Shown here piece after piece: positions 1-4,494 of a stretch of DNA of 37,324 bases. Origin of the DNA: Candidatus Micrarchaeota archaeon. Lineage in GTDB: Archaea; Micrarchaeota; Micrarchaeia; CAILAH01. Within the stretch, counting starts at the first letter, position 1; each line of letters begins with the position of its first letter. The position numbers and the translations under genes were made by a program. Under the pieces are notes generated by a model. That model was given only the letters and a program-made list of their open reading frames with translations, did no database searches and was not told the origin of the DNA. The DNA lies in the NCBI GenBank assembly GCA_964401875.1, contig CAYOAB010000002.1, forward strand, positions 1 to 37,324, written 5' to 3'.

Positions 1-595
1 CTTTAGTTTCCTCTCCAGAAACATATAAAACAAAATCTTCATTTATTTTTGAAGGTAAAGGTTCTTCCATATTTTTATATTTAGAATCACACTTCTGATC
101 GTATCCTTCGTCCACATTTTGATTTAATCTCATGAATGATATCTGGCCAATTTTCATGCTATCATATATTCTAACTGGGTTAGGGTTCACTGATGAAATT
201 TCTAAGGTTAATCTGCAAGGACTTTGGTACCCCCACCCAGCATGTAACAAACCTGCAGTTTGATGAATAACAATACCTATTCTTGCCATTGATGATCTCC
301 CTTCTAAAGTGCCAACCATACAATTAGCTAATCCGATTTTTTCTAATGTTGATGCAAGTATAAAATCACCGGGATGTATATCGTAAGGACCTTTTGATAA
401 ATCATGTTCATCAAATTCCATTTCTGCACCATTCTTAATATCAACAACTTTACCTGTCTTTTTAGCAATAAGTAGCTTAGGGCCTAAACAAATATCTACA
501 CTATCTATGCCAACATTATTCAAATCTAAGGGTTGAAGTATAACTTCTTTATCATTTAAAGCTTTAACAATCTCATTTTTACACAATAATGACAT
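1..595 (-). CDS. dcd: dCTP deaminase / dUTPase-fold protein, partial (C-terminus runs off the window start)
   Basis: Not in the ORF track because it is truncated. The minus-strand ATG is at 595-593. My translation is MSLLCKNEIVKALNDKEVILQPLDLNNVGIDSVDICLGPK...GTLEGRSSMARIGIVIHQTAGLLHAGWGY...LTLEI...KIGQISFMRL...GYDQKCDSKY. This matches the EGRSS-x-xR-G and HQTAG-x-x-x-AG-(W/F)-x-G core of archaeal Dcd. Confidence 0.85.
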   Translation of the reverse strand, partial: MSLLCKNEIVKALNDKEVILQPLDLNNVGIDSVDICLGPKLLIAKKTGKVVDIKNGAEMEFDEHDLSKGPYDIHPGDFILASTLEKIGLANCMVGTLEGRSSMARIGIVIHQTAGLLHAGWGYQSPCRLTLEISSVNPNPVRIYDSMKIGQISFMRLNQNVDEGYDQKCDSKYKNMEEPLPSKINEDFVLYVSGEETK

Positions 596-625
596 GTTTA
601 AAATTAAGAATTAAAAATATAAAAA

Positions 626-1009
626 TTAGTTTAACAATTTAAGTGCTCTCTTATAATCTTCCGGGTCGATTACAACTTCTGTTCTTCCTTCATTATCTTT
701 ACCAATAATGTAAACGGATCTAATGTTAACTCCATCTTTACTTAATTTTTTAGTTGTTTTGTATAATTCACCAGGTTTATCTAACATTTTTAATATAATA
801 ACATCACTAACAAGAGCGTTAAATCCAGCTTTTGCCAATTCATTAGTTGCCGTAACTATATCAGGTGTTAATATTCTAACAATACCTGTGTTTTCAAATC
901 CCTGTGCAGATATTGATACAATATTTATGCCACTTTTGCCTAATATATCAGTTATACTTGCTAAGGCCCCTATTTTATTCTCTATAATTACTGTTATTTG
1001 TTTCATCAT
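626..1009 (-). CDS. ACT-domain protein (two tandem ACT-like halves)
   Basis: 127 aa. The N-terminal ITVIIENKIGALASITDILGKSGINIVSIS and the second half LKMLDKPGELYKTTKKLSKDGVNIRSVYI both follow the beta-alpha-beta ACT pattern (x-D-x-PG-x-L). It lies co-directionally upstream of dcd. Confidence 0.7.
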   Translation of the reverse strand: MMKQITVIIENKIGALASITDILGKSGINIVSISAQGFENTGIVRILTPDIVTATNELAKAGFNALVSDVIILKMLDKPGELYKTTKKLSKDGVNIRSVYIIGKDNEGRTEVVIDPEDYKRALKLLN

Positions 1010-1050
1010 TTTCTATTCACCTATGCGTATTAAATTAAGTTCAAATATAT

Positions 1051-1056
1051 TATAAA
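1051..1056 (+). promoter_or_regulatory. Candidate TATA box (tataaa) about 30 nt upstream of the GC-rich hairpin array
   Basis: tattataaatc lies at 1048-1058 and the GC-rich segment begins with ggg at 1088-1090. The spacing fits an archaeal TATA-to-TSS distance. The strand of the downstream element is not proven. Confidence 0.3.
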
Positions 1057-1086
1057 TCAAACGTTTAATATCACAAATTGTCGTAA

Positions 1087-1300
1087 ATGGGTGAGCTTTC
1101 CGCCCTGTTTATTCGTTCACGAATAAACACGCCCTTCGGCTCTGCCGAAGTAACGCCTTCAAACCCCGGTAATGCTCAAACGACAAAGTCGTTTGGCATG
1201 CCTCTTTTCCGTAGGAAAAGGACACACCATCCACTACGTGGATACGTGTGCCGCAAACGCAAAGCGTTTGCCCGCATTTTGCCTCCGTGAGGCAAAATTG
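1087..1300. ncRNA. Unclassified GC-rich structured element with seven consecutive perfect stem-loops (candidate novel ncRNA or DNA-level hairpin array)
   Basis: Hairpins by hand folding are listed here.
- HP1 1106-1129: 10 bp, loop ttca.
- HP2 1134-1150: cttcggc/gccgaag, loop tct.
- HP3 1177-1195: caaacgac/gtcgtttg, loop aaa.
- HP4 1204-1220: cttttcc/ggaaaag, loop gta.
- HP5 1223-1250: cacac+atccac / gtggat+gtgtg, 1x2 internal loop, loop tac.
- HP6 1253-1271: gcaaacgc/gcgtttgc, loop aaa.
- HP7 1276-1298: attttgcctc/gaggcaaaat, loop cgt.
GC content is far above the flanks. I recognised no known RNA family motif. Confidence 0.5.
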
Positions 1301-1327
1301 AAAATAATAAAAACAATTTTGTAAAAT

Positions 1328-1334
1328 AAAAAAA
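1328..1334 (-). terminator. Oligo-T (T7) archaeal-type terminator just downstream of RNase P RNA
   Basis: The plus-strand A7 run at 1328-1334 is T7 on the minus strand. It begins 4 nt after the predicted RNase P RNA 3' end at 1338. Confidence 0.45.
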
Positions 1335-1337
1335 TAT

Positions 1338-1642
1338 AAGAAGGGTGATAGGCCACCTTTTGTTTAACTAGAAAAAATTTCTTTCCCCTAGGGCTTTCTT
1401 TAGGATGTGAACCGAAGGTTCAACCGAAAGAAAGGGCTAACAGCATTGATCTAAGCGCTTTAAGCTTGCACAATCATTACCTTGTACAGGGGCCGTTTCA
1501 TCCTTTTCATTTCCAACGTCATATAAAATCATTCTAAGAATGAAAGGTATCGTTTCTGTATCCCCATATTTCCTTAAGAAACACAAAGTTCATTGTGGGC
1601 GGACCTTCCTCCGGAGTACCCGGTGAGCTGTCTTCCCTTCTT
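1338..1642 (-). ncRNA. rnpB: RNase P RNA (archaeal type-A-like)
   Basis: The minus-strand RNA starts AAGAAGGGAAGACAGCUCACC...CCGGAGGAAGGUCCGCCC (CR-I, GGAGGAAaGUCC-like). It continues ...GGGGAUACAGAAACGAUACC (ACAGAAA motif) and ...GAUGAAACGGCCCCUGUACAAGG...UAGAUCAAUGCUG..., ending ...CACCCUUCUU. The terminal 8-bp P1 pairs AAGAAGGG (1642-1635) with CCCUUCUU (1345-1338). It is a GC-rich island of about 305 nt in AT-rich DNA. Confidence 0.85.
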
Positions 1643-1669
1643 ATGTATTAATTAAAGAATAGAGCCTTT

Positions 1670-2722
1670 TTATTTTTTACGATTTTTCAAAATTACTTGT
1701 TCAATTAAATCACAGGCATGAGTAACATTTTTTGAAGTGTCAATCTTAGAATAAATCTCTAAATTCTCCTTACACTTATTTGAATTAACCGTTTCTATGG
1801 CTAATTGTATGGTTTTTTCATCTAAAAATTCTGTGTCTAAACTTACACCTAACCCTTTTTCTGTAACACCTAAACAATTGTTAACCCTCTCTGTGTAATC
1901 TTTTAATGGAATTAAAATGAGTGCAGTTTTACAAGTAACACAACTCATAATAGAGGTGTGCCCACCATGAGTTATTATAAAAGGTGCCCTTGAAATTAAA
2001 TCATTAATTTCACTCTTTTCAATCATACCACTATTGTGAACCTTGTACCCATTTTTTTGTAAAACCTCTTTTATCTTATTCATTTCAGAATTCTGTAAAC
2101 CACTTCCACCCATTGTAATTAAAACTTCATTATTTTTCTTTTTAGGTTTGATTATATCAAGTGGACCAACAAAATGAAATTTATGTTCAGAACCAAAAAA
2201 TTCTAAATTTCTTCTAGTAATGGTGAAAGGAGGTTCATAATCGGGCACAATTAAAAGTGAACTTAAATCAACTATAGTTTTTGAAACAGCATCACTACCG
2301 AATTCAATTAATCCGTTAATCTGTTTGAAAACGTATGATAAACGGGTACAGTTAATTATACTTATAACGGGAACTCCTAACATTTTTGATATGAAAATTC
2401 CAGGTATATATCCATCTACAATTAAAACCTCAGGTTTATTTTTTGTTATTGCTGTTGTTATTTTTTTCAATGCGCTCGGTTTAATTCTTTTCATATTTTC
2501 AATTAAACTTTTGTTAACGTCAATTTCTTCTTCTTTAGTTATGAGTTCACCTATAGCAGGCAACTCGTGGACCATATACCCTTTTGAAATTAATATTTCA
2601 TAAGATTTACCGAAGGATGAAATTGATACTTCATGTTTTCTTCTAATTAGTTCTTCTATTAACGGTAAAGACCTATAAAGATGTCCCAACCCTAATCCGT
2701 TCACCATAAAGTGTATGCGCAT
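1670..2722 (-). CDS. Glycosyltransferase, GT-B fold (GT1/GT28, MurG/MJ1255-like)
   Basis: The ORF track extends to 2770, but the family-typical N-terminus MRIHFMVNGLGLGHLYR (G-x-G-x-GH loop) begins at the ATG at 2722. The C-terminal half has the ITHGGHTSIMSCVTCKTALILIP nucleotide-sugar binding pattern. Confidence 0.7.
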   Translation of the reverse strand: MRIHFMVNGLGLGHLYRSLPLIEELIRRKHEVSISSFGKSYEILISKGYMVHELPAIGELITKEEEIDVNKSLIENMKRIKPSALKKITTAITKNKPEVLIVDGYIPGIFISKMLGVPVISIINCTRLSYVFKQINGLIEFGSDAVSKTIVDLSSLLIVPDYEPPFTITRRNLEFFGSEHKFHFVGPLDIIKPKKKNNEVLITMGGSGLQNSEMNKIKEVLQKNGYKVHNSGMIEKSEINDLISRAPFIITHGGHTSIMSCVTCKTALILIPLKDYTERVNNCLGVTEKGLGVSLDTEFLDEKTIQLAIETVNSNKCKENLEIYSKIDTSKNVTHACDLIEQVILKNRKK

Positions 2723-2785
2723 AATGTAATTTAATCGTAAATTAATAAAAATAAATAAAAACTTATACATTCTAATTAAGCTTAA

Positions 2786-2965
2786 GCTGAGGTAGCCAAG
2801 TGGTTAAGGCGCTAGACTGCTAATCTAGTGGGCCCTGCCCGCGTGGGTTCAAGCACTGCGGATGAGGGGGAGACCCCCTCCTCCCCGTGTGTTCTGCCCC
2901 ACCACCCCGTGCGGTGGCGATAGAACATTAACTTTGTTAACTACCTAAAAATCCCATCCTCAGCG
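2786..2965 (+). tRNA. tRNA-Ser (anticodon GCT) with a long variable arm and a ~98-nt insertion in the T-loop
   Basis: Hand-folded cloverleaf, element by element.
- Acceptor gctgagg (2786-2792) pairs with cctcagc (2958-2964); discriminator is g2965.
- D-arm is gcc-aagtggttaa-ggc.
- Anticodon stem is ctaga/tctag with loop ctGCTaa (anticodon 2819-2821).
- Variable arm is gggc-cct-gccc.
- T-stem gtggg (2843-2847) pairs with cccat (2953-2957).
- T-loop ttcaa...at is split by 2853-2950.
No CCA is encoded, and a T5 run follows. Confidence 0.8.
2853..2950 (+). other. Candidate non-canonical tRNA intron in the T-loop (about position 58/59) of tRNA-Ser(GCU)
   Basis: The intron is inferred because the flanking exons complete a perfect T-stem and acceptor stem. 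The insert is GC-rich and self-structured, for example gaggggg-aga-ccccctc at 2864-2880. The boundaries are ambiguous by +/-2 nt because of flanking A residues. I could not confirm a bulge-helix-bulge motif by eye. Confidence 0.55.
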
Positions 2966-2966
2966 C

Positions 2967-2971
2967 TTTTT
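2967..2971 (+). terminator. Oligo-T tract after tRNA-Ser
   Basis: A ttttt run immediately follows the discriminator plus one nucleotide. Confidence 0.4.
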
Positions 2972-3000
2972 CTTATTATTAATATCAATTTAATGTTAAT

Positions 3001-3008
3001 TATAAAAT
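3001..3008 (+). promoter_or_regulatory. Candidate TATA box upstream of the free-standing structured RNA
   Basis: tataaaat at 3001-3008 lies about 20-25 nt upstream of the first base of the closing helix at 3022-3031. Confidence 0.35.
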
Positions 3009-3021
3009 GGTCAGAGGGTTA

Positions 3022-3137
3022 GCGCAGGGTTAAGGGACGCGAAGTCCCTTCCCGTCCTGCAGGGGCGGAACCTTCCAAAACGAAGTTTTGGAATGGTGCC
3101 ATATACTTTAGTATATGAGAACCCTGCTCCTCAGCGC
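3022..3137 (+). ncRNA. Unclassified ~115-nt GC-rich structured RNA, paralogue-like to the tRNA-Ser intron plus 3' exon tail
   Basis: - The closing helix pairs gcagggtt (3024-3031) with aaccctgc (3120-3127).
- Internal hairpins are aagggac-gcgaa-gtccctt (3032-3050), ttccaaaac-gaa-gttttggaa (3073-3093) and atatac-ttta-gtatat (3101-3116).
- The element ends in tcctcagcgc followed by T8, identical over 15 nt to the end of the tRNA-Ser gene.
I recognised no cloverleaf, 5S, SRP or C/D-box pattern. Confidence 0.5.
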
Positions 3138-3145
3138 TTTTTTTT
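3138..3145 (+). terminator. Oligo-T (T8) terminator after the structured RNA
   Basis: A tttttttt run lies at 3138-3145. Confidence 0.45.
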
Positions 3146-3150
3146 ATATA

Positions 3151-4494
3151 TTATTTTTTCTTCTGTAAATTGAGAATAGTTTCAACAACTACACTTAGTC
3201 CTGCACCCGTTGGCCCAAAACTAAATGGTGAATTCCCTTTTGTGTGCGCAGTTCCTGCAATGTCTAAATGTACCCATTTAGTTTTTCCAACAAAATTTGA
3301 AAGGAACGCAGCGGCCGTAATTGTTCCCGCTTCACCAGTTTCTGAACTATTCTTAATGTCTGCAAATTTACCTTTCATTAATTCAACATACTCTTCCGTT
3401 AAAGGTAATTGCCATACCTGGTCATAACTTTTCTTTGAACTTTCATTAATTAAGTCAATGAACTCCTTATCATTTCCAAGTATAGCAATGTGATAACTTC
3501 CAAGTGCAACTGTAACTGCACCAGTTAATGTAGCCAAATCAATAACATAATCAGGTTTATACTTTTCAATCCCATATGCTAAAGCGTCCGCTAAAATCAT
3601 TCTACCTTCCGCGTCCGTGTTTAATATTTCAATTGTTTTACCATTATATGCAGTAACAACATCTCCTGGCCTTGTAGCGTTACCACTTGGCATATTTTCA
3701 CATAAAGGCATAACACCAATCACATTAATCTCCGGTTCAATTTCTGCAATCGCTCTTATAATTCCCATTGTTGTAATAGCACCGCTCTTATCATATTTCA
3801 TTTCTTCCATTCCCTTTGAAGGTTTAAGTGAAATCCCACCACTATCAAAAGTAATTCCCTTTCCCACAATCAAGATTGTTTTTTTTGCTTTTTTGTGTGT
3901 ATATTTAATTATGGGCATTACAGGTTCATTGTAACTTCCCTTAGCAACGGACATGAACGCGTTCATCTCTAAATCATGAATCTGTTGAAAATCAATACAT
4001 TCATATTTCAAGTTCCATTCCTTTGCCATTTTTTTAACTTCTTCATTTATGTATGAAGGTGTAGCAATATTTCCCGGAAGTAAATTTATTTCTCTAACAT
4101 AATTAACAGAATCACCTAATATACTTGCCTTTGAAAGTTCTGGAAATTGTCTTTTATCTGCCCACAAATAAATTTTATTTTCATTTTTTTCTTCTTCCTT
4201 TTCACTCTTCAAATTTTTAATTTCATTTTCAGATAAAATCAAATAATAAAATATATATGATGCTATTCCATCATCAAATCCCTTAACATCTATAATTATA
4301 TCTTTTTTCAAATTCTTACCGAAACTTATTACATTTTGAAGTATTTTTTTAATTGAATTATTTGTAACCTTTTCTTTTCCCAGGTTACAGGTTATAATAT
4401 CTTCTTTGTAACTTATTTCTCCCACTTTCTCTTTCTTATTAAATTCAATTTTAATAGCGTTTTTAATTTCCTTTTCAGTTATTTCAATTTGCAT
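3151..4494 (-). CDS. pepA: Leucyl aminopeptidase, M17 family
   Basis: 447 aa. It carries the M17 signature NTDAEGRMILADAL, VGKGITFDSGGISLKP and DLATLTGA. Confidence 0.9.
   Translation of the reverse strand: MQIEITEKEIKNAIKIEFNKKEKVGEISYKEDIITCNLGKEKVTNNSIKKILQNVISFGKNLKKDIIIDVKGFDDGIASYIFYYLILSENEIKNLKSEKEEEKNENKIYLWADKRQFPELSKASILGDSVNYVREINLLPGNIATPSYINEEVKKMAKEWNLKYECIDFQQIHDLEMNAFMSVAKGSYNEPVMPIIKYTHKKAKKTILIVGKGITFDSGGISLKPSKGMEEMKYDKSGAITTMGIIRAIAEIEPEINVIGVMPLCENMPSGNATRPGDVVTAYNGKTIEILNTDAEGRMILADALAYGIEKYKPDYVIDLATLTGAVTVALGSYHIAILGNDKEFIDLINESSKKSYDQVWQLPLTEEYVELMKGKFADIKNSSETGEAGTITAAAFLSNFVGKTKWVHLDIAGTAHTKGNSPFSFGPTGAGLSVVVETILNLQKKK

What the first reader, a model, noticed from the sequence alone, without database searches (positions are those of the whole stretch)
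1087..1300. GC-rich island built from seven back-to-back perfect stem-loops, unassignable to any RNA family I know
A ~210-nt segment of much higher GC content sits in the AT-rich spacer between the ACT-domain gene and RNase P RNA.

**Structure.** It resolves into seven consecutive local hairpins. Stems are 10, 7, 8, 7, 5+6, 8 and 10 bp, and six of the seven loops are triloops. All hairpins lie between 1106 and 1298 and are mostly separated by only 2-8 nt.

**Internal similarity.** HP3 (caaacgac-aaa-gtcgtttg) and HP6 (gcaaacgc-aaa-gcgtttgc) are clearly related to each other. The motif cgcc(c)tt recurs at 1101, 1130 and 1154.

**Why it is unusual.** Natural housekeeping RNAs (SRP, RNase P, 5S) have nested, imperfect helices, so a beads-on-a-string arrangement of perfect helices is atypical. 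In AT-rich archaea, GC-rich islands are a classical indicator of structured ncRNA genes. A tataaa box lies about 30 nt upstream on the plus strand.

**Alternatives.** It could be a long 5' leader for the minus-strand ACT-dcd operon, or a DNA-level hairpin array that serves as a protein-binding or ssDNA recognition site.
Basis: partly seen in the sequence, partly recalled or inferred. Interest (0 to 1): 0.72.

Follow-up and report, generated by a model that had tools for sequence, protein, structure and literature searches.

The report
Orphan hairpin array near tRNA-Ser
The GC-rich run of perfect stem-loops is real, but it is a strain-specific, fast-changing hairpin array probably left over from a rearranged serine-tRNA locus in a tiny (DPANN) archaeon, not a conserved new RNA gene.

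Summary
**Observation:** confirmed. Window 1087-1300 is 51% GC in a 30% GC window. It holds six perfect hairpins with stems of at least 7 bp, plus one composite hairpin. Dinucleotide shuffles gave at most 2.

**What it does not match:**
- No Rfam family.
- No phage, plasmid or viral sequence.
- No Pfam domain for the chance ORF.

**Host and conservation:** the host is an AT-rich Micrarchaeota-like archaeon. The island is identical in strains with 98-100% ACT-protein identity. It is absent from relatives at 87-94% identity. At that spot those relatives carry one of three things:
- a clean tRNA-Ser(GCU) gene;
- that gene with a hairpin-rich T-loop intron and partial duplicates of its 3' end;
- only two mini-hairpins.

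**Origin:** one relative (L130) has an array between tRNA-Ser and ACT that is collinear with the island. It shares a hairpin with three fully compensated base pairs. The island sits at a rearrangement junction: the RNase P-GT-tRNA-Ser block is inverted relative to ACT.

**Related hairpins:** similar modules vary in number in the neighbouring RNase P RNA loop and in the tRNA-Ser-linked element.

**Best reading (0.55):** a decayed and expanded remnant of the tRNA-Ser-linked array that grows by insertion of whole hairpins. It is not an independent conserved ncRNA and not the ACT leader. Function and transcribed strand remain untested.

The parts
1087..1300 (.). GC-rich hairpin island: seven perfect or near-perfect hairpins plus one imperfect one. 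By homology with relatives, the sense strand is more likely the minus strand (the ACT and RNase P orientation).
   Evidence: 100% identical in L045, L122, L123, L132-134
1089..1105 (-). Imperfect hairpin GGGCG-GAAAGCT-CACCC (minus strand). It contains GGAAAGCTCACCC, a possible decayed copy of the tRNA-Ser intron end plus 3' exon (GGAAATCCCACCC), and the GGGCGGAA core shared with the GCGGAA-loop hairpin of the tRNA-Ser-linked element.
   Evidence: collinear with L130 ...GGGGGCGGAGCCCCTCATTTACG
1106..1129 (.). HP1: 10-bp perfect stem with a 4-nt loop. Absent from the collinear L130 array. Flanked by GGGCG/CGCCC direct repeats.
1134..1150 (.). HP2: 7-bp stem with a triloop. Absent from L130. Flanked by AAGG(G)CG repeats, and its stem partly reuses the repeat sequence.
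1162..1172 (-). Unpaired segment TTACCGGGGTT (minus strand), shared with L130 unit 2 (TATACCGGGGTTGAGG).
1172..1201 (-). HP3 with its extended base (GCATGCC-AAACGAC-TTT-GTCGTTT-GAGCAT on the minus strand). It is related to a hairpin inserted in the RNase P RNA loop of the L046 lineage.
   Evidence: 2 of 1000 dinucleotide shuffles and 10 of 2000 palindrome-preserving shuffles reach the score
1204..1220 (.). HP4: 7-bp stem with a triloop. Its stem CTTTTCC/GGAAAAG resembles the first helix of the L121 tRNA-Ser intron; this is a weak match.
1222..1252 (.). HP5: composite hairpin. On the minus strand it forms 14 pairs including 2 G-U; on the plus strand it forms 11-12 pairs.
1253..1271 (.). HP6: 8-bp stem with a triloop. 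Related to HP3. Flanked by CCGCA/TGCGG repeats.
1276..1298 (-). HP7: 10-bp stem. Homologous to the 11-bp hairpin of L130 unit 1, with 3 of 10 pairs changed on both sides and none broken.
1045..1056 (-). TATA box of the ACT-dcd promoter (TTTATAATATAT). Conserved in all lineages. Lies between the island and the ACT gene.
1301..1337 (-). AT-rich spacer with a T7 run immediately 3' of RNase P RNA. By established archaeal knowledge this is the likely oligo-T terminator.
1338..1642 (-). RNase P RNA. Its terminal loop near 1400-1420 carries one perfect hairpin (TGAACC-TTC-GGTTCA), where the L046 lineage carries three.
2786..2966 (+). tRNA-Ser(GCU) gene interrupted in the T-loop by a 97-nt hairpin-rich intron (2852-2948).
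   Evidence: intronless alleles in L115, L119 and L130
3008..3137 (+). tRNA-Ser-linked 'second element': a hairpin array ending in a duplicate of the tRNA 3' end (CCTCAGCGC plus a T-run).
3072..3122 (+). 51-nt two-hairpin module flanked by GAAC repeats. Present in the window, L045 and L121; absent from L132 and L120.

Best explanation
**What it is.** The island is a lineage-specific, fast-evolving array of self-folding hairpin modules. It is not a conserved ncRNA gene.

**Origin.** It descends from the hairpin array that, in this Micrarchaeota-like clade, is attached to the 3' side of the tRNA-Ser(GCU) gene. That array comprises a T-loop BHB-type intron and partial tandem duplicates of intron plus 3' exon.

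**How it came to sit here.** A rearrangement inverted the RNase P-glycosyltransferase-tRNA-Ser block relative to ACT-dcd. This cut the array. The ACT-proximal part stayed next to the ACT promoter and now lies just downstream of the RNase P RNA terminator.

**What happened since.**
- Its remnant of the tRNA 3' exon has decayed.
- It has grown by insertion of whole perfect hairpins, often flanked by 4-6-nt direct repeats.
- The insertion process also changes hairpin number in the RNase P RNA loop and in the tRNA-Ser-linked element. Replication template switching or slippage is the most likely process.

**Why only perfect hairpins persist.** They persist either because that process creates and repairs them, or because sequence transcribed next to structured RNAs is tolerated only if it folds on itself.

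**Shown versus inferred.**
- Shown: presence/absence pattern, synteny, collinearity with L130, compensated pairs, module indels.
- Inferred: tRNA-Ser-array ancestry, the insertion mechanism, and the lack of a dedicated function.
For: **1. Distribution**
- Identical island in six independent W-type contigs covering the whole island (L045, L122, L123, L132-134), plus three truncated contigs (L124-126) that match over the part they cover.
- No island in L046/L128/L131, which have RNase P, then two mini-hairpins, then ACT.
- No island in L115 and L119, which have intronless tRNA-Ser followed by ACT.
- No island in L112, L120/L127 or L121.

**2. Synteny**
- L112 reads RNaseP(-) GT(-) tRNA-Ser(+) ACT(+).
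- The window reads ACT(-) island RNaseP(-) GT(-) tRNA-Ser(+).
- The island therefore lies exactly at the junction.

**3. Collinearity with L130**
- The array between tRNA-Ser and ACT in L130 is collinear with the island's minus strand.
- Shared pieces: the HP7-like hairpin, TACCGGGGTTGA(A)GG, GGGCGGA, then the common flank CATTTACG(A/T)CAATTTGTGATA.
- Gapped local score without the flank: 33.2. Shuffles: mean 21.1, sd 4.0; 3 of 500 reach it.
- With the flank there is a 36-nt local alignment.

**4. HP7**
- Between the window and L130, 3 of 10 pairs are changed on both sides and none is broken.

**5. The second element**
- It ends in a copy of the tRNA 3' end. In L120 the copy is 29 nt and includes 7 intron nucleotides.
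- In L121 the same sequence forms the 3' part of the intron.
- L132 and L120 elements are clearly homologous (0 of 1000 shuffles reach the score).

**6. Whole-hairpin indels**
- A 51-nt two-hairpin module flanked by GAAC repeats is present in the window and L121 but absent in the near-identical strain L132.
- L112's intron has two extra hairpins relative to L120.
- The RNase P loop has 1 hairpin in the window and 3 in the L046 lineage.
- HP1 and HP2 are absent from L130 and flanked by GGGCG / AAGG(G)CG repeats.

**7. Related hairpins elsewhere**
- HP3 resembles an RNase P-loop hairpin of the L046 lineage in the same orientation.

**8. Outside the flanking transcription units**
- A T7 run follows RNase P RNA.
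- The conserved ACT TATA box lies downstream of the island.

**9. Published precedents**
- T-loop (59/60) introns and a broad-specificity splicing endonuclease are documented in Micrarchaeum/ARMAN-2 (PMC3239211).
- Template switching can create and repair perfect stems (PMC8794818).
Against: - Direct similarity between the island and the second elements is not significant (289-349 of 1000 shuffles reach the score).
- L130 units versus second elements are only borderline (33-76 of 1000). Similarity between the tRNA-Ser intron and the second element, outside the duplicated 3' exon, is also weak (155 of 500 shuffles in the window; 26 of 500 in L120). The link from island to tRNA-Ser intron duplicate therefore rests on position, a 13-nt decayed match and transitive homology.
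- Three fully compensated pairs in HP7, and perfect stems in an AT-biased genome, could equally mean purifying selection on a functional RNA.
- There is no ancestral reconstruction, so template switching is not demonstrated. HP1 has both arms new, which a single local template switch does not readily explain.
- The flanking-repeat signal is modest: 3 of 6 hairpins have a repeat of at least 5 nt, against P about 0.05 each, and two of these share one repeat.
- Strain comparison gives no information. The whole stretch 1010-1406, AT-rich spacers included, is invariant.
- Transcription was not tested.
Confidence: 0.55

Rival explanations
1. The island is a lineage-specific functional small RNA. It would be transcribed either on the plus strand, divergently from the near-palindromic ACT TATA box, or on the minus strand from its own weak promoter. 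Its beads-on-a-string hairpins would serve as a protein-binding or stabilising platform.
For: - Extreme structure z-scores on both strands.
- All stems are perfect in a 30% GC genome.
- HP7 is kept with three compensated pairs in L130.
- A TATA-like sequence lies about 31 nt upstream on the plus strand.
- The hairpin with the GCGGAA loop in the related second elements has covarying stems.
Against: - Absent from lineages with 87-94% ACT identity, including L046, which shares the same gene order.
- No Rfam match.
- The TATA box is explained by the conserved ACT promoter.
- No oligo-T terminator of 5 or more follows the island on either strand.
- Hairpin number and identity change between close relatives, so no conserved architecture exists.
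- Strand-asymmetry cues conflict: 1089-1105 favours the plus strand and HP5 the minus strand.
Confidence: 0.2
2. Each hairpin is a tiny palindromic mobile insertion. The analogues are mitochondrial GC clusters, Rickettsia palindromic elements and REP/MITE-like units. Such elements would target loops and spacers of RNA genes and make short target-site duplications. The island would be a pile-up of them.
For: - Whole-hairpin presence/absence between near-identical strains, flanked by GAAC.
- Direct repeats of 5-6 nt flank HP1, HP2 and HP6.
- Related hairpins occur at three different sites: the island, the RNase P loop and the second element.
- The setting is GC-rich palindromes in an AT-rich genome.
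Against: - Every island hairpin is unique. No other copy with up to 3 mismatches occurs in the 37-kb window or in about 750 kb of related contigs.
- No transposase or integrase gene was found among the Pfam-scanned ORFs of the first 17.5 kb.
- No match in viral, phage or plasmid collections.
- All related hairpins lie within one 2-kb neighbourhood. That fits local copying better than transposition.
Confidence: 0.12
3. The array acts at the DNA level. It would be a cruciform or hairpin-prone fragile site, or an inverted partner of the second element at 3008-3137, that promotes inversion of the RNase P-GT-tRNA-Ser block or marks a protein or ssDNA recognition site.
For: - It lies exactly at the inversion junction.
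- A related element in the opposite orientation lies at the other end of the inverted block.
- Assemblies from three samples break inside HP5.
- Stems are perfect Watson-Crick palindromes, equally good on both strands.
Against: - Similarity between the island and the second element is not significant, so they are poor recombination partners today.
- All near-identical strains show one orientation only.
- The hairpins have different sequences, so no repeated protein-binding motif exists.
- The contig breaks are explained by palindromic k-mers. Other contigs break at the tRNA anticodon stem in the same way.
Confidence: 0.06
4. The island is the long structured 5' leader of the minus-strand ACT-dcd operon.
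For: It lies upstream of ACT on the same strand as the relatives' arrays, and no strong terminator separates it from ACT.
Against: - The conserved TATA box (TTTATAATATAT), about 47 nt before the ATG with a GGTGA ribosome-binding site, lies downstream of the island in every lineage, with or without the island.
- ACT-dcd is intact in lineages that lack the island.
Confidence: 0.03
5. The island encodes a 67-aa protein (ORF 1087-1290, plus strand), which was called as a gene on contig L123.
For: An open frame exists, and a gene caller annotated it.
Against: - No Pfam match.
- The frame runs through palindromes.
- GC-rich sequence in an AT-rich genome lacks stop codons by chance, and overlapping ORFs are open in several frames on both strands.
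- The sequence is absent from close relatives.
Confidence: 0.01

Closest known systems
Disrupted archaeal tRNA genes: BHB introns at non-canonical T-loop positions (59/60) in ARMAN-2/Micrarchaeum, and split or duplicated tRNA fragments
   Same: - The neighbouring tRNA-Ser(GCU) has a T-loop insertion. Removing it restores a normal tRNA.
- The clade is Micrarchaeota-like, where 59/60 introns and a broad-specificity endonuclease are documented (PMC3239211).
- The island occupies the position of tRNA-linked arrays in relatives and carries a possible decayed 3'-exon remnant.
   Different: - The island has no intact exon, no intact bulge-helix-bulge arrangement and no partner half.
- Known ARMAN introns are short (13-25 nt in that paper). 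The introns here are 97 to about 300 nt and made of tandem perfect hairpins.
- The island itself is no longer inside any tRNA gene.
Hairpin creation and repair by replication template switching, and the accretion model of RNA expansion segments
   Same: - Whole perfect hairpins appear or disappear between close relatives.
- Some insert into the loops of existing hairpins (L120 versus L121).
- Multi-base compensated changes occur with no broken pairs.
- Short direct repeats lie at the insertion borders. All of this matches the patterns described in PMC8794818.
   Different: - That work concerns rRNA and other functional RNAs. Here the largest array is an orphan intergenic segment.
- No ancestral reconstruction or source-sequence identification was possible here.
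Short GC-rich palindromic insertions in AT-rich genomes (yeast mitochondrial GC clusters, Rickettsia palindromic elements, double-hairpin elements, REP/BIME); comparison from my own knowledge, not tested against those sequences
   Same: - GC-rich palindromes sit in an AT-rich genome.
- They lie in spacers and in tolerant parts of RNA genes.
- They show presence/absence polymorphism with short flanking repeats.
   Different: Those families are multi-copy with recognisable consensus sequences. The island hairpins are all different and have no other copies in the sequence available.
Archaeal SRP RNA (RF01857)
   Same: - In more distant Micrarchaeota, an SRP RNA plus a tRNA precede ACT on the same strand.
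- Like the island, it is a GC-rich structured RNA of a few hundred nucleotides.
   Different: - No SRP match on either strand at E<=10.
- The island lacks the long-range helix 5 pairing.
- It is absent from close relatives, which an essential RNA could not be.

Membership tests
Any Rfam 15 family | Covariance-model match at or near the gathering score | tested here: not met
   - (gathering thresholds, whole window): no match in the island.
- (E<=10, 950-1750, both strands): only noise in 1087-1300 (CRISPR-DR20 at 16.8 bits against a gathering score of 42; RUF1).
Archaeal SRP RNA | Match to RF01857, with a rod-like helix 5 closing the 5' and 3' ends | tested here: not met
   - no hit. Relatives L001-L007 score 92-126 bits.
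- Folds are local hairpins without a long closing helix.
Archaeal SRP RNA | Universal presence in close relatives | tested here: not met
   The island is absent from the L046, L112, L115, L119, L120 and L121 lineages.
BHB tRNA intron, split-tRNA half or tRNA gene fragment | Adjacent intact exon sequence of a tRNA | tested here: inconclusive
   Only a decayed 13-nt match is present: GGAAAGCTCACCC against GGAAATCCCACCC, 11 of 13. The acceptor 3' strand CCTCAGCG is missing.
BHB tRNA intron, split-tRNA half or tRNA gene fragment | A bulge-helix-bulge (or relaxed hBH) motif formed with a partner exon | tested here: not met
   - No partner 5' exon lies next to the island.
- The bona fide tRNA-Ser at 2786-2966 has its own 3' exon.
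BHB tRNA intron, split-tRNA half or tRNA gene fragment | Positional or sequence homology to a tRNA-linked array in relatives | tested here: met
   - Collinear with the L130 array between tRNA-Ser and ACT.
- Occupies the same position as the second element in L120/L127.
Dispersed palindromic repeat or miniature mobile element (REP, MITE, GC cluster) | Multiple similar copies at unlinked sites | tested here: not met
   no further copy of any island hairpin (up to 3 mismatches) in the window or in about 750 kb of related loci. Only 37 kb of the host genome itself was available.
Dispersed palindromic repeat or miniature mobile element (REP, MITE, GC cluster) | Target-site duplications at insertion borders | tested here: inconclusive
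   - Three of 6 hairpins have flanking repeats of at least 5 nt, against P about 0.05 each.
- The 51-nt module is flanked by GAAC.
- Slippage or template switching would give the same pattern.
Template-switch-generated hairpins | An ancestral state lacking the hairpin, and a new arm that is a reverse-complement copy of nearby sequence | tested here: inconclusive
   - HP1 and HP2 are absent from L130.
- The stems of HP2 and HP6 reuse flank sequence in both orientations.
- No ancestral reconstruction was done, and HP1's arms have no identified source.
C/D or H/ACA guide sRNA | C/D boxes, or a pseudouridylation pocket with an ACA box | tested here: not met
   - No Rfam snoRNA/sRNA hit.
- The stems are perfect and have no internal pocket.
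CRISPR array | Identical direct repeats separated by spacers | tested here: not met
   the only direct repeat found is a 7-mer. The hairpins all differ in sequence.

The most novel reading that the evidence does not exclude
This AT-rich Micrarchaeota-like clade has an active, local process that keeps inserting and perfecting GC-containing hairpins into tolerant parts of RNA genes and their relics: the tRNA-Ser T-loop intron, an RNase P RNA loop and the orphan island. The process could be template switching or an unknown insertion mechanism that leaves 4-6-nt duplications. That would make this locus a natural, strain-resolved record of how structured RNA grows by hairpin accretion. A stronger version is that the arrays are maintained because they have an RNA-level role, for example insulating or stabilising neighbouring structured RNAs.
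Probability: 0.3. Interest if true: 0.7.

Novelty: new variant of a known kind. Interest (0 to 1): 0.45.

Why it matters
- **A caution for genome scans.** A GC-rich, strongly folding island in an AT-rich archaeal genome is not by itself a sign of a conserved ncRNA gene. Here it is a young, lineage-specific by-product of a dynamic tRNA locus.
- **A tractable evolutionary example.** The locus shows hairpins gained, lost, nested and compensated between strains and sister lineages in three contexts: a spliced intron, a catalytic RNA loop and an orphan spacer. It bears on how RNA stems and expansion segments originate, and on how disrupted tRNA genes evolve in DPANN archaea.
- **An annotation point.** The tRNA-Ser(GCU) gene is missed or truncated by standard tRNA finders because of its long T-loop intron.

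Tried and rejected
- **Rfam:** gathering and permissive thresholds gave nothing for the island and nothing beyond the truncated tRNA for 2700-3200.
- **SRP RNA idea:** prompted by SRP-tRNA-ACT synteny in distant relatives. Rejected because there is no match and the island is absent from close relatives.
- **Protein-coding ORF 1087-1290:** no Pfam hit.
- **Foreign or mobile origin:**
  - Exact scans of viral contigs found nothing.
  - blastn against plasmids and phages found nothing.
  - No integrase or transposase gene among the Pfam-scanned ORFs of the first 17.5 kb.
- **Strand assignment from sense/antisense folding energy:** known-sense arrays (tRNA intron, RNase P insert) do not consistently fold better in sense, so the test is uninformative.
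- **Constraint from strain comparison:** the whole stretch 1010-1406 is invariant, AT-rich spacers included, so there is no island-specific signal.
- **Direct homology of the island to the second elements, and of the tRNA intron to the second element:** not significant against shuffles.
- **Hairpin clusters in about 725 kb of more distant DPANN loci:** none comparable, so the phenomenon is clade-specific.
- **Literature:** searches for Micrarchaeota tRNA introns and for DPANN RNase P/SRP RNA found nothing describing such arrays.
- **Limits on sampling:** The far side of the inversion in un-inverted lineages could not be fetched.
Full report
**1.

Window 1087-1300 contains perfect inverted repeats at these positions:
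- 1106-1129: 10 bp stem, 4-nt loop.
- 1134-1150: 7 bp.
- 1177-1195: 8 bp.
- 1204-1220: 7 bp.
- 1229-1243: 6 bp, nested in an outer stem spanning 1222-1252.
- 1253-1271: 8 bp.
- 1276-1298: 10 bp.

An eighth, imperfect hairpin lies at 1089-1105.

GC is 51% against 30% for the window. The island has six perfect hairpins with stems of at least 7 bp. Of 2000 dinucleotide-preserving shuffles, 94% had none and the maximum was two. Predicted folding is far below shuffles on both strands, with z of -8.7 and -7.8. That is expected for Watson-Crick palindromes and does not identify a strand.

In the whole 37-kb window, GC-containing perfect hairpins cluster at only two places: the island and 2864-3117.

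**2. It matches nothing catalogued**

- Rfam gives no match on either strand at E<=10.
- The same search finds RNase P RNA at 1338-1642 (-), at 76.4 bits, below the gathering score of 84.
- The 67-aa ORF at 1087-1290 has no Pfam match. It is the kind of open frame a GC-rich patch produces in an AT-rich genome.
- Viral contigs, phage records and plasmid records hold nothing similar.
- The ORFs scanned in the first 17.5 kb are housekeeping genes where Pfam gives a match (three had none): dCTP deaminase, ACT protein, glycosyltransferase, M17 aminopeptidase, RFC subunits, an Lhr-type helicase and others. There is no integrase or transposase.

**3. Host and comparative material**

The ACT protein (626-1009, minus strand) has its nearest named relatives in Micrarchaeota MAGs at 62-67% identity. 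I collected syntenic loci from genome and metagenome collections and from contigs encoding close ACT homologues.

In the 63-67% relatives, ACT is preceded on the same strand by SRP RNA and a long-arm tRNA. In the close clade (87-100% ACT identity, about 30% GC) the picture is as follows:

| Lineage (ACT identity) | What lies upstream of ACT |
|---|---|
| L045, L122, L123, L132-134 (98-100%) | The island, base-for-base identical; truncated contigs L124-126 match over the part they cover |
| L046/L128/L131 (90%) | Same gene order (RNase P then ACT), but only two mini-hairpins (TGGTCAGAGGACCA, CGTCAAAAGACG) |
| L115 (90%), L119/L116 (87%) | A clean, intronless tRNA-Ser(GCU) directly upstream of ACT |
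| L112-114 (92%) | tRNA-Ser with a hairpin-array insertion of about 135 nt in the T-loop |
| L120/L127 (94%) | tRNA-Ser with an insertion of about 90 nt, then a 'second element': hairpins ending in a 29-nt duplicate of the intron end, 3' exon and terminator |
| L121 (93%) | The second-element sequence is the 3' part of an intron of about 260 nt |
| L130 (88%) | An intronless tRNA-Ser followed, without a terminator, by a 172-nt array of two tandem units, then ACT |

The island is therefore not conserved.

**4. Where the island comes from**

*Flanking sequence.* The sequence next to the ACT promoter is shared by all lineages: (A)TTTACG(A/T)CAA ... TTTATAATATAT, with the TATA box about 47 nt before the ATG and a GGTGA ribosome-binding site. 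The island ends exactly at this shared flank. The ACT promoter therefore lies downstream of the island, and the island is not the ACT leader.

*Rearrangement.* L112 reads RNaseP(-) GT(-) tRNA-Ser(+) ACT(+). The window reads ACT(-) island RNaseP(-) GT(-) tRNA-Ser(+) second-element(+). The block RNaseP-GT-tRNA-Ser is inverted relative to ACT-dcd, and the island sits at the junction.

*Collinearity with L130.* The island's minus strand is collinear with the L130 array:
- an HP7-like hairpin;
- TACCGGGGTTGA(A)GG;
- GGGCGGA;
- then the shared flank.

Without the flank, the gapped local score is 33.2 against shuffles of 21.1 +/- 4.0, and 3 of 500 shuffles reach it. With the flank there is a 36-nt alignment. 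Relative to L130, HP1 and HP2 are insertions bordered by GGGCG and AAGG(G)CG repeats.

*Remnant of the tRNA 3' exon.* The island's last hairpin contains GGAAAGCTCACCC, compared with GGAAATCCCACCC (intron end plus 3' exon), an 11 of 13 match.

*Where the chain is weak.*
- Second elements of different lineages are clearly homologous (0 of 1000 shuffles reach the score).
- L130 units versus second elements are only borderline (33-76 of 1000).
- The island versus second elements directly is not significant (about 300 of 1000).
- The tRNA intron versus the second element, outside the duplicated 3' exon, is also weak.

So derivation from the array that lay between tRNA-Ser and ACT is well supported. 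The claim that this array is ultimately a duplicate of the intron-bearing tRNA 3' part is inference.

**5. The neighbouring tRNA-Ser gene**

Rfam reports a weak, truncated tRNA at 2786-2855, and ARAGORN misses it. Removing 2852-2948 in silico gives a normal 84-nt tRNA-Ser(GCU). It matches the intronless alleles of L115, L119 and L130.

The insertion point is in the T-loop, at about 59/60. UUCA (5' exon) can pair with UGGA (intron end), and AAU bulges lie on both sides in L112. The pairing is less regular in the window. This is my reading of the sequence, not a tool result.

Micrarchaeum (ARMAN-2) is documented to have 59/60 T-loop introns with relaxed hBH motifs and an endonuclease that cleaves them (PMC3239211). 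Hairpin arrays in this clade thus live inside a plausibly spliced intron.

**6. Hairpins behave as discrete, fast-changing modules**

- A 51-nt two-hairpin module (3072-3122), flanked by GAAC repeats, is present in the window, L045 and the distant L121. It is absent from L132, whose 660-nt ACT-GT intergenic region (island, spacers and RNase P) differs from the window at one base, and from L120. In L120 and L121 the insertion point is the loop of an existing hairpin.
- Between the window and L121 copies of that module, the only differences are two adjacent base pairs changed on both sides (CATATAC/GTATATG versus CATATGT/ACATATG).
- HP7 and its L130 counterpart differ at 3 of 10 pairs. All three are compensated.
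- The L112 intron has two extra hairpins relative to L120.
- The terminal loop of one RNase P RNA helix holds one hairpin in the window and three in the L046 lineage.
- One of those three resembles island HP3 with its base (GCATGCC...GAGCAT), in the same orientation. Two of 1000 dinucleotide shuffles and 10 of 2000 palindrome-preserving shuffles reach the score.
- Another shares a 13-nt core (AAAACTTCGTTTT) with the module hairpin at 3073-3093, read on the opposite strand.
- No island hairpin has another copy (up to 3 mismatches) elsewhere in the window or in about 750 kb of related contigs.
- Comparable hairpin clusters do not occur in more distant DPANN loci.

This is local copying and accretion within a 2-kb neighbourhood, not a dispersed repeat family.

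**7. Mechanism**

The best-supported account is evolutionary. The island is the ACT-proximal remnant of the tRNA-Ser-linked array, stranded by the inversion between the RNase P terminator (a T7 run at about 1318-1337) and the ACT promoter. It was then enlarged by hairpin insertions.

Several features fit replication template switching or slippage, which can create a perfect stem in one event and repair existing stems (PMC8794818):
- short flanking duplications;
- stems that reuse flank sequence in both orientations (HP2, HP6);
- nested insertion into loops;
- multi-base compensated changes with no broken pairs.

An additional or alternative filter is selection. Next to structured RNAs (pre-tRNA, RNase P RNA, and read-through transcripts of them), only inserts that fold on themselves are harmless.

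Neither process was demonstrated here. HP1, with two new arms, is not easily explained by one local switch. The flank-repeat statistic is modest.

**8. Strand and function remain open**

- Homology (L130, the second elements, the RNase P-type hairpin) and the two extra G-U pairs of HP5 point to the minus strand.
- The 1089-1105 hairpin pairs better on the plus strand.
- Folding energies of known-sense arrays do not discriminate strands.
- Strain comparison is uninformative. The whole stretch 1010-1406 is invariant in every strain, AT-rich spacers included, while dcd differs by about 7%.
- A functional lineage-specific sRNA therefore cannot be excluded (0.2). The compensated pairs are the best argument for it. 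The absence from sister lineages and the lack of any conserved architecture are the best arguments against it.

**9. Verdict**

This is a real and striking structure with an ordinary-to-moderately interesting explanation. It is a young, orphaned, hairpin-accreting remnant of a dynamic tRNA-Ser locus in a DPANN archaeon. The value lies less in the island as a gene than in the locus as a strain-resolved example of how perfect RNA/DNA hairpins are born, nested, compensated and lost.

Noticed in passing
window 2786-2966 (+), intron 2852-2948: The tRNA-Ser(GCU) gene is split in the T-loop (about position 59/60) by a 97-nt hairpin-rich insertion. ARAGORN misses it and Rfam reports only a truncated 33-bit tRNA. 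In-silico removal restores a normal tRNA-Ser. Intron length varies from 0 to about 260 nt among close lineages.
   Followed up: yes
window 3008-3137 (+): A second GC-rich hairpin element ends in a duplicate of the tRNA-Ser 3' end plus a T-run.
   Followed up: yes
window 3072-3122 (+): A 51-nt two-hairpin module within the second element, flanked by GAAC repeats, is present or absent between near-identical strains (window versus L132).
   Followed up: yes
window 1338-1642 (-): RNase P RNA scores 76.4 bits, below Rfam's gathering score of 84. It carries a lineage-variable terminal loop: one perfect hairpin here, three in the L046/L131 lineage, and a different sequence in L112.
   Followed up: partly
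window 1-3140 versus L112, L120, L115: The gene order differs by an inversion of the RNase P-glycosyltransferase-tRNA-Ser block relative to ACT-dcd. The L046 lineage shares the window's order.
   Followed up: partly
L001, L002, L003, L007 (about 3400-3960): In more distant Micrarchaeota (ACT 62-67% identity), an archaeal SRP RNA and a long-arm tRNA lie immediately upstream of ACT. No SRP RNA was detected anywhere in this window.
   Followed up: partly
window 596-1406: This stretch has no differences outside the ACT coding region (0.5-2.3%), and 1010-1406 is fully invariant, in strains whose dcd (34-595) differs by 6-8% and whose glycosyltransferase differs by up to 9%. A recent recombination tract or sweep could explain this.
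   Followed up: no
L124, L125, L126 (start at window 1231); L116-118 (start in the tRNA anticodon stem); L130 (starts in the T-arm): Independent short-read assemblies break at exactly the same base inside hairpins. This is probably a palindromic k-mer artefact of assembly, not a biological end.
   Followed up: no
L130 27-200; L121 about 150-165: The motif ATAGCCAGCGAG starts each of the two tandem units in L130 and recurs inside the L121 intron. It loosely resembles the tRNA-Ser D-arm region (TAGCCAAGTGG). Its meaning is unknown.
   Followed up: no
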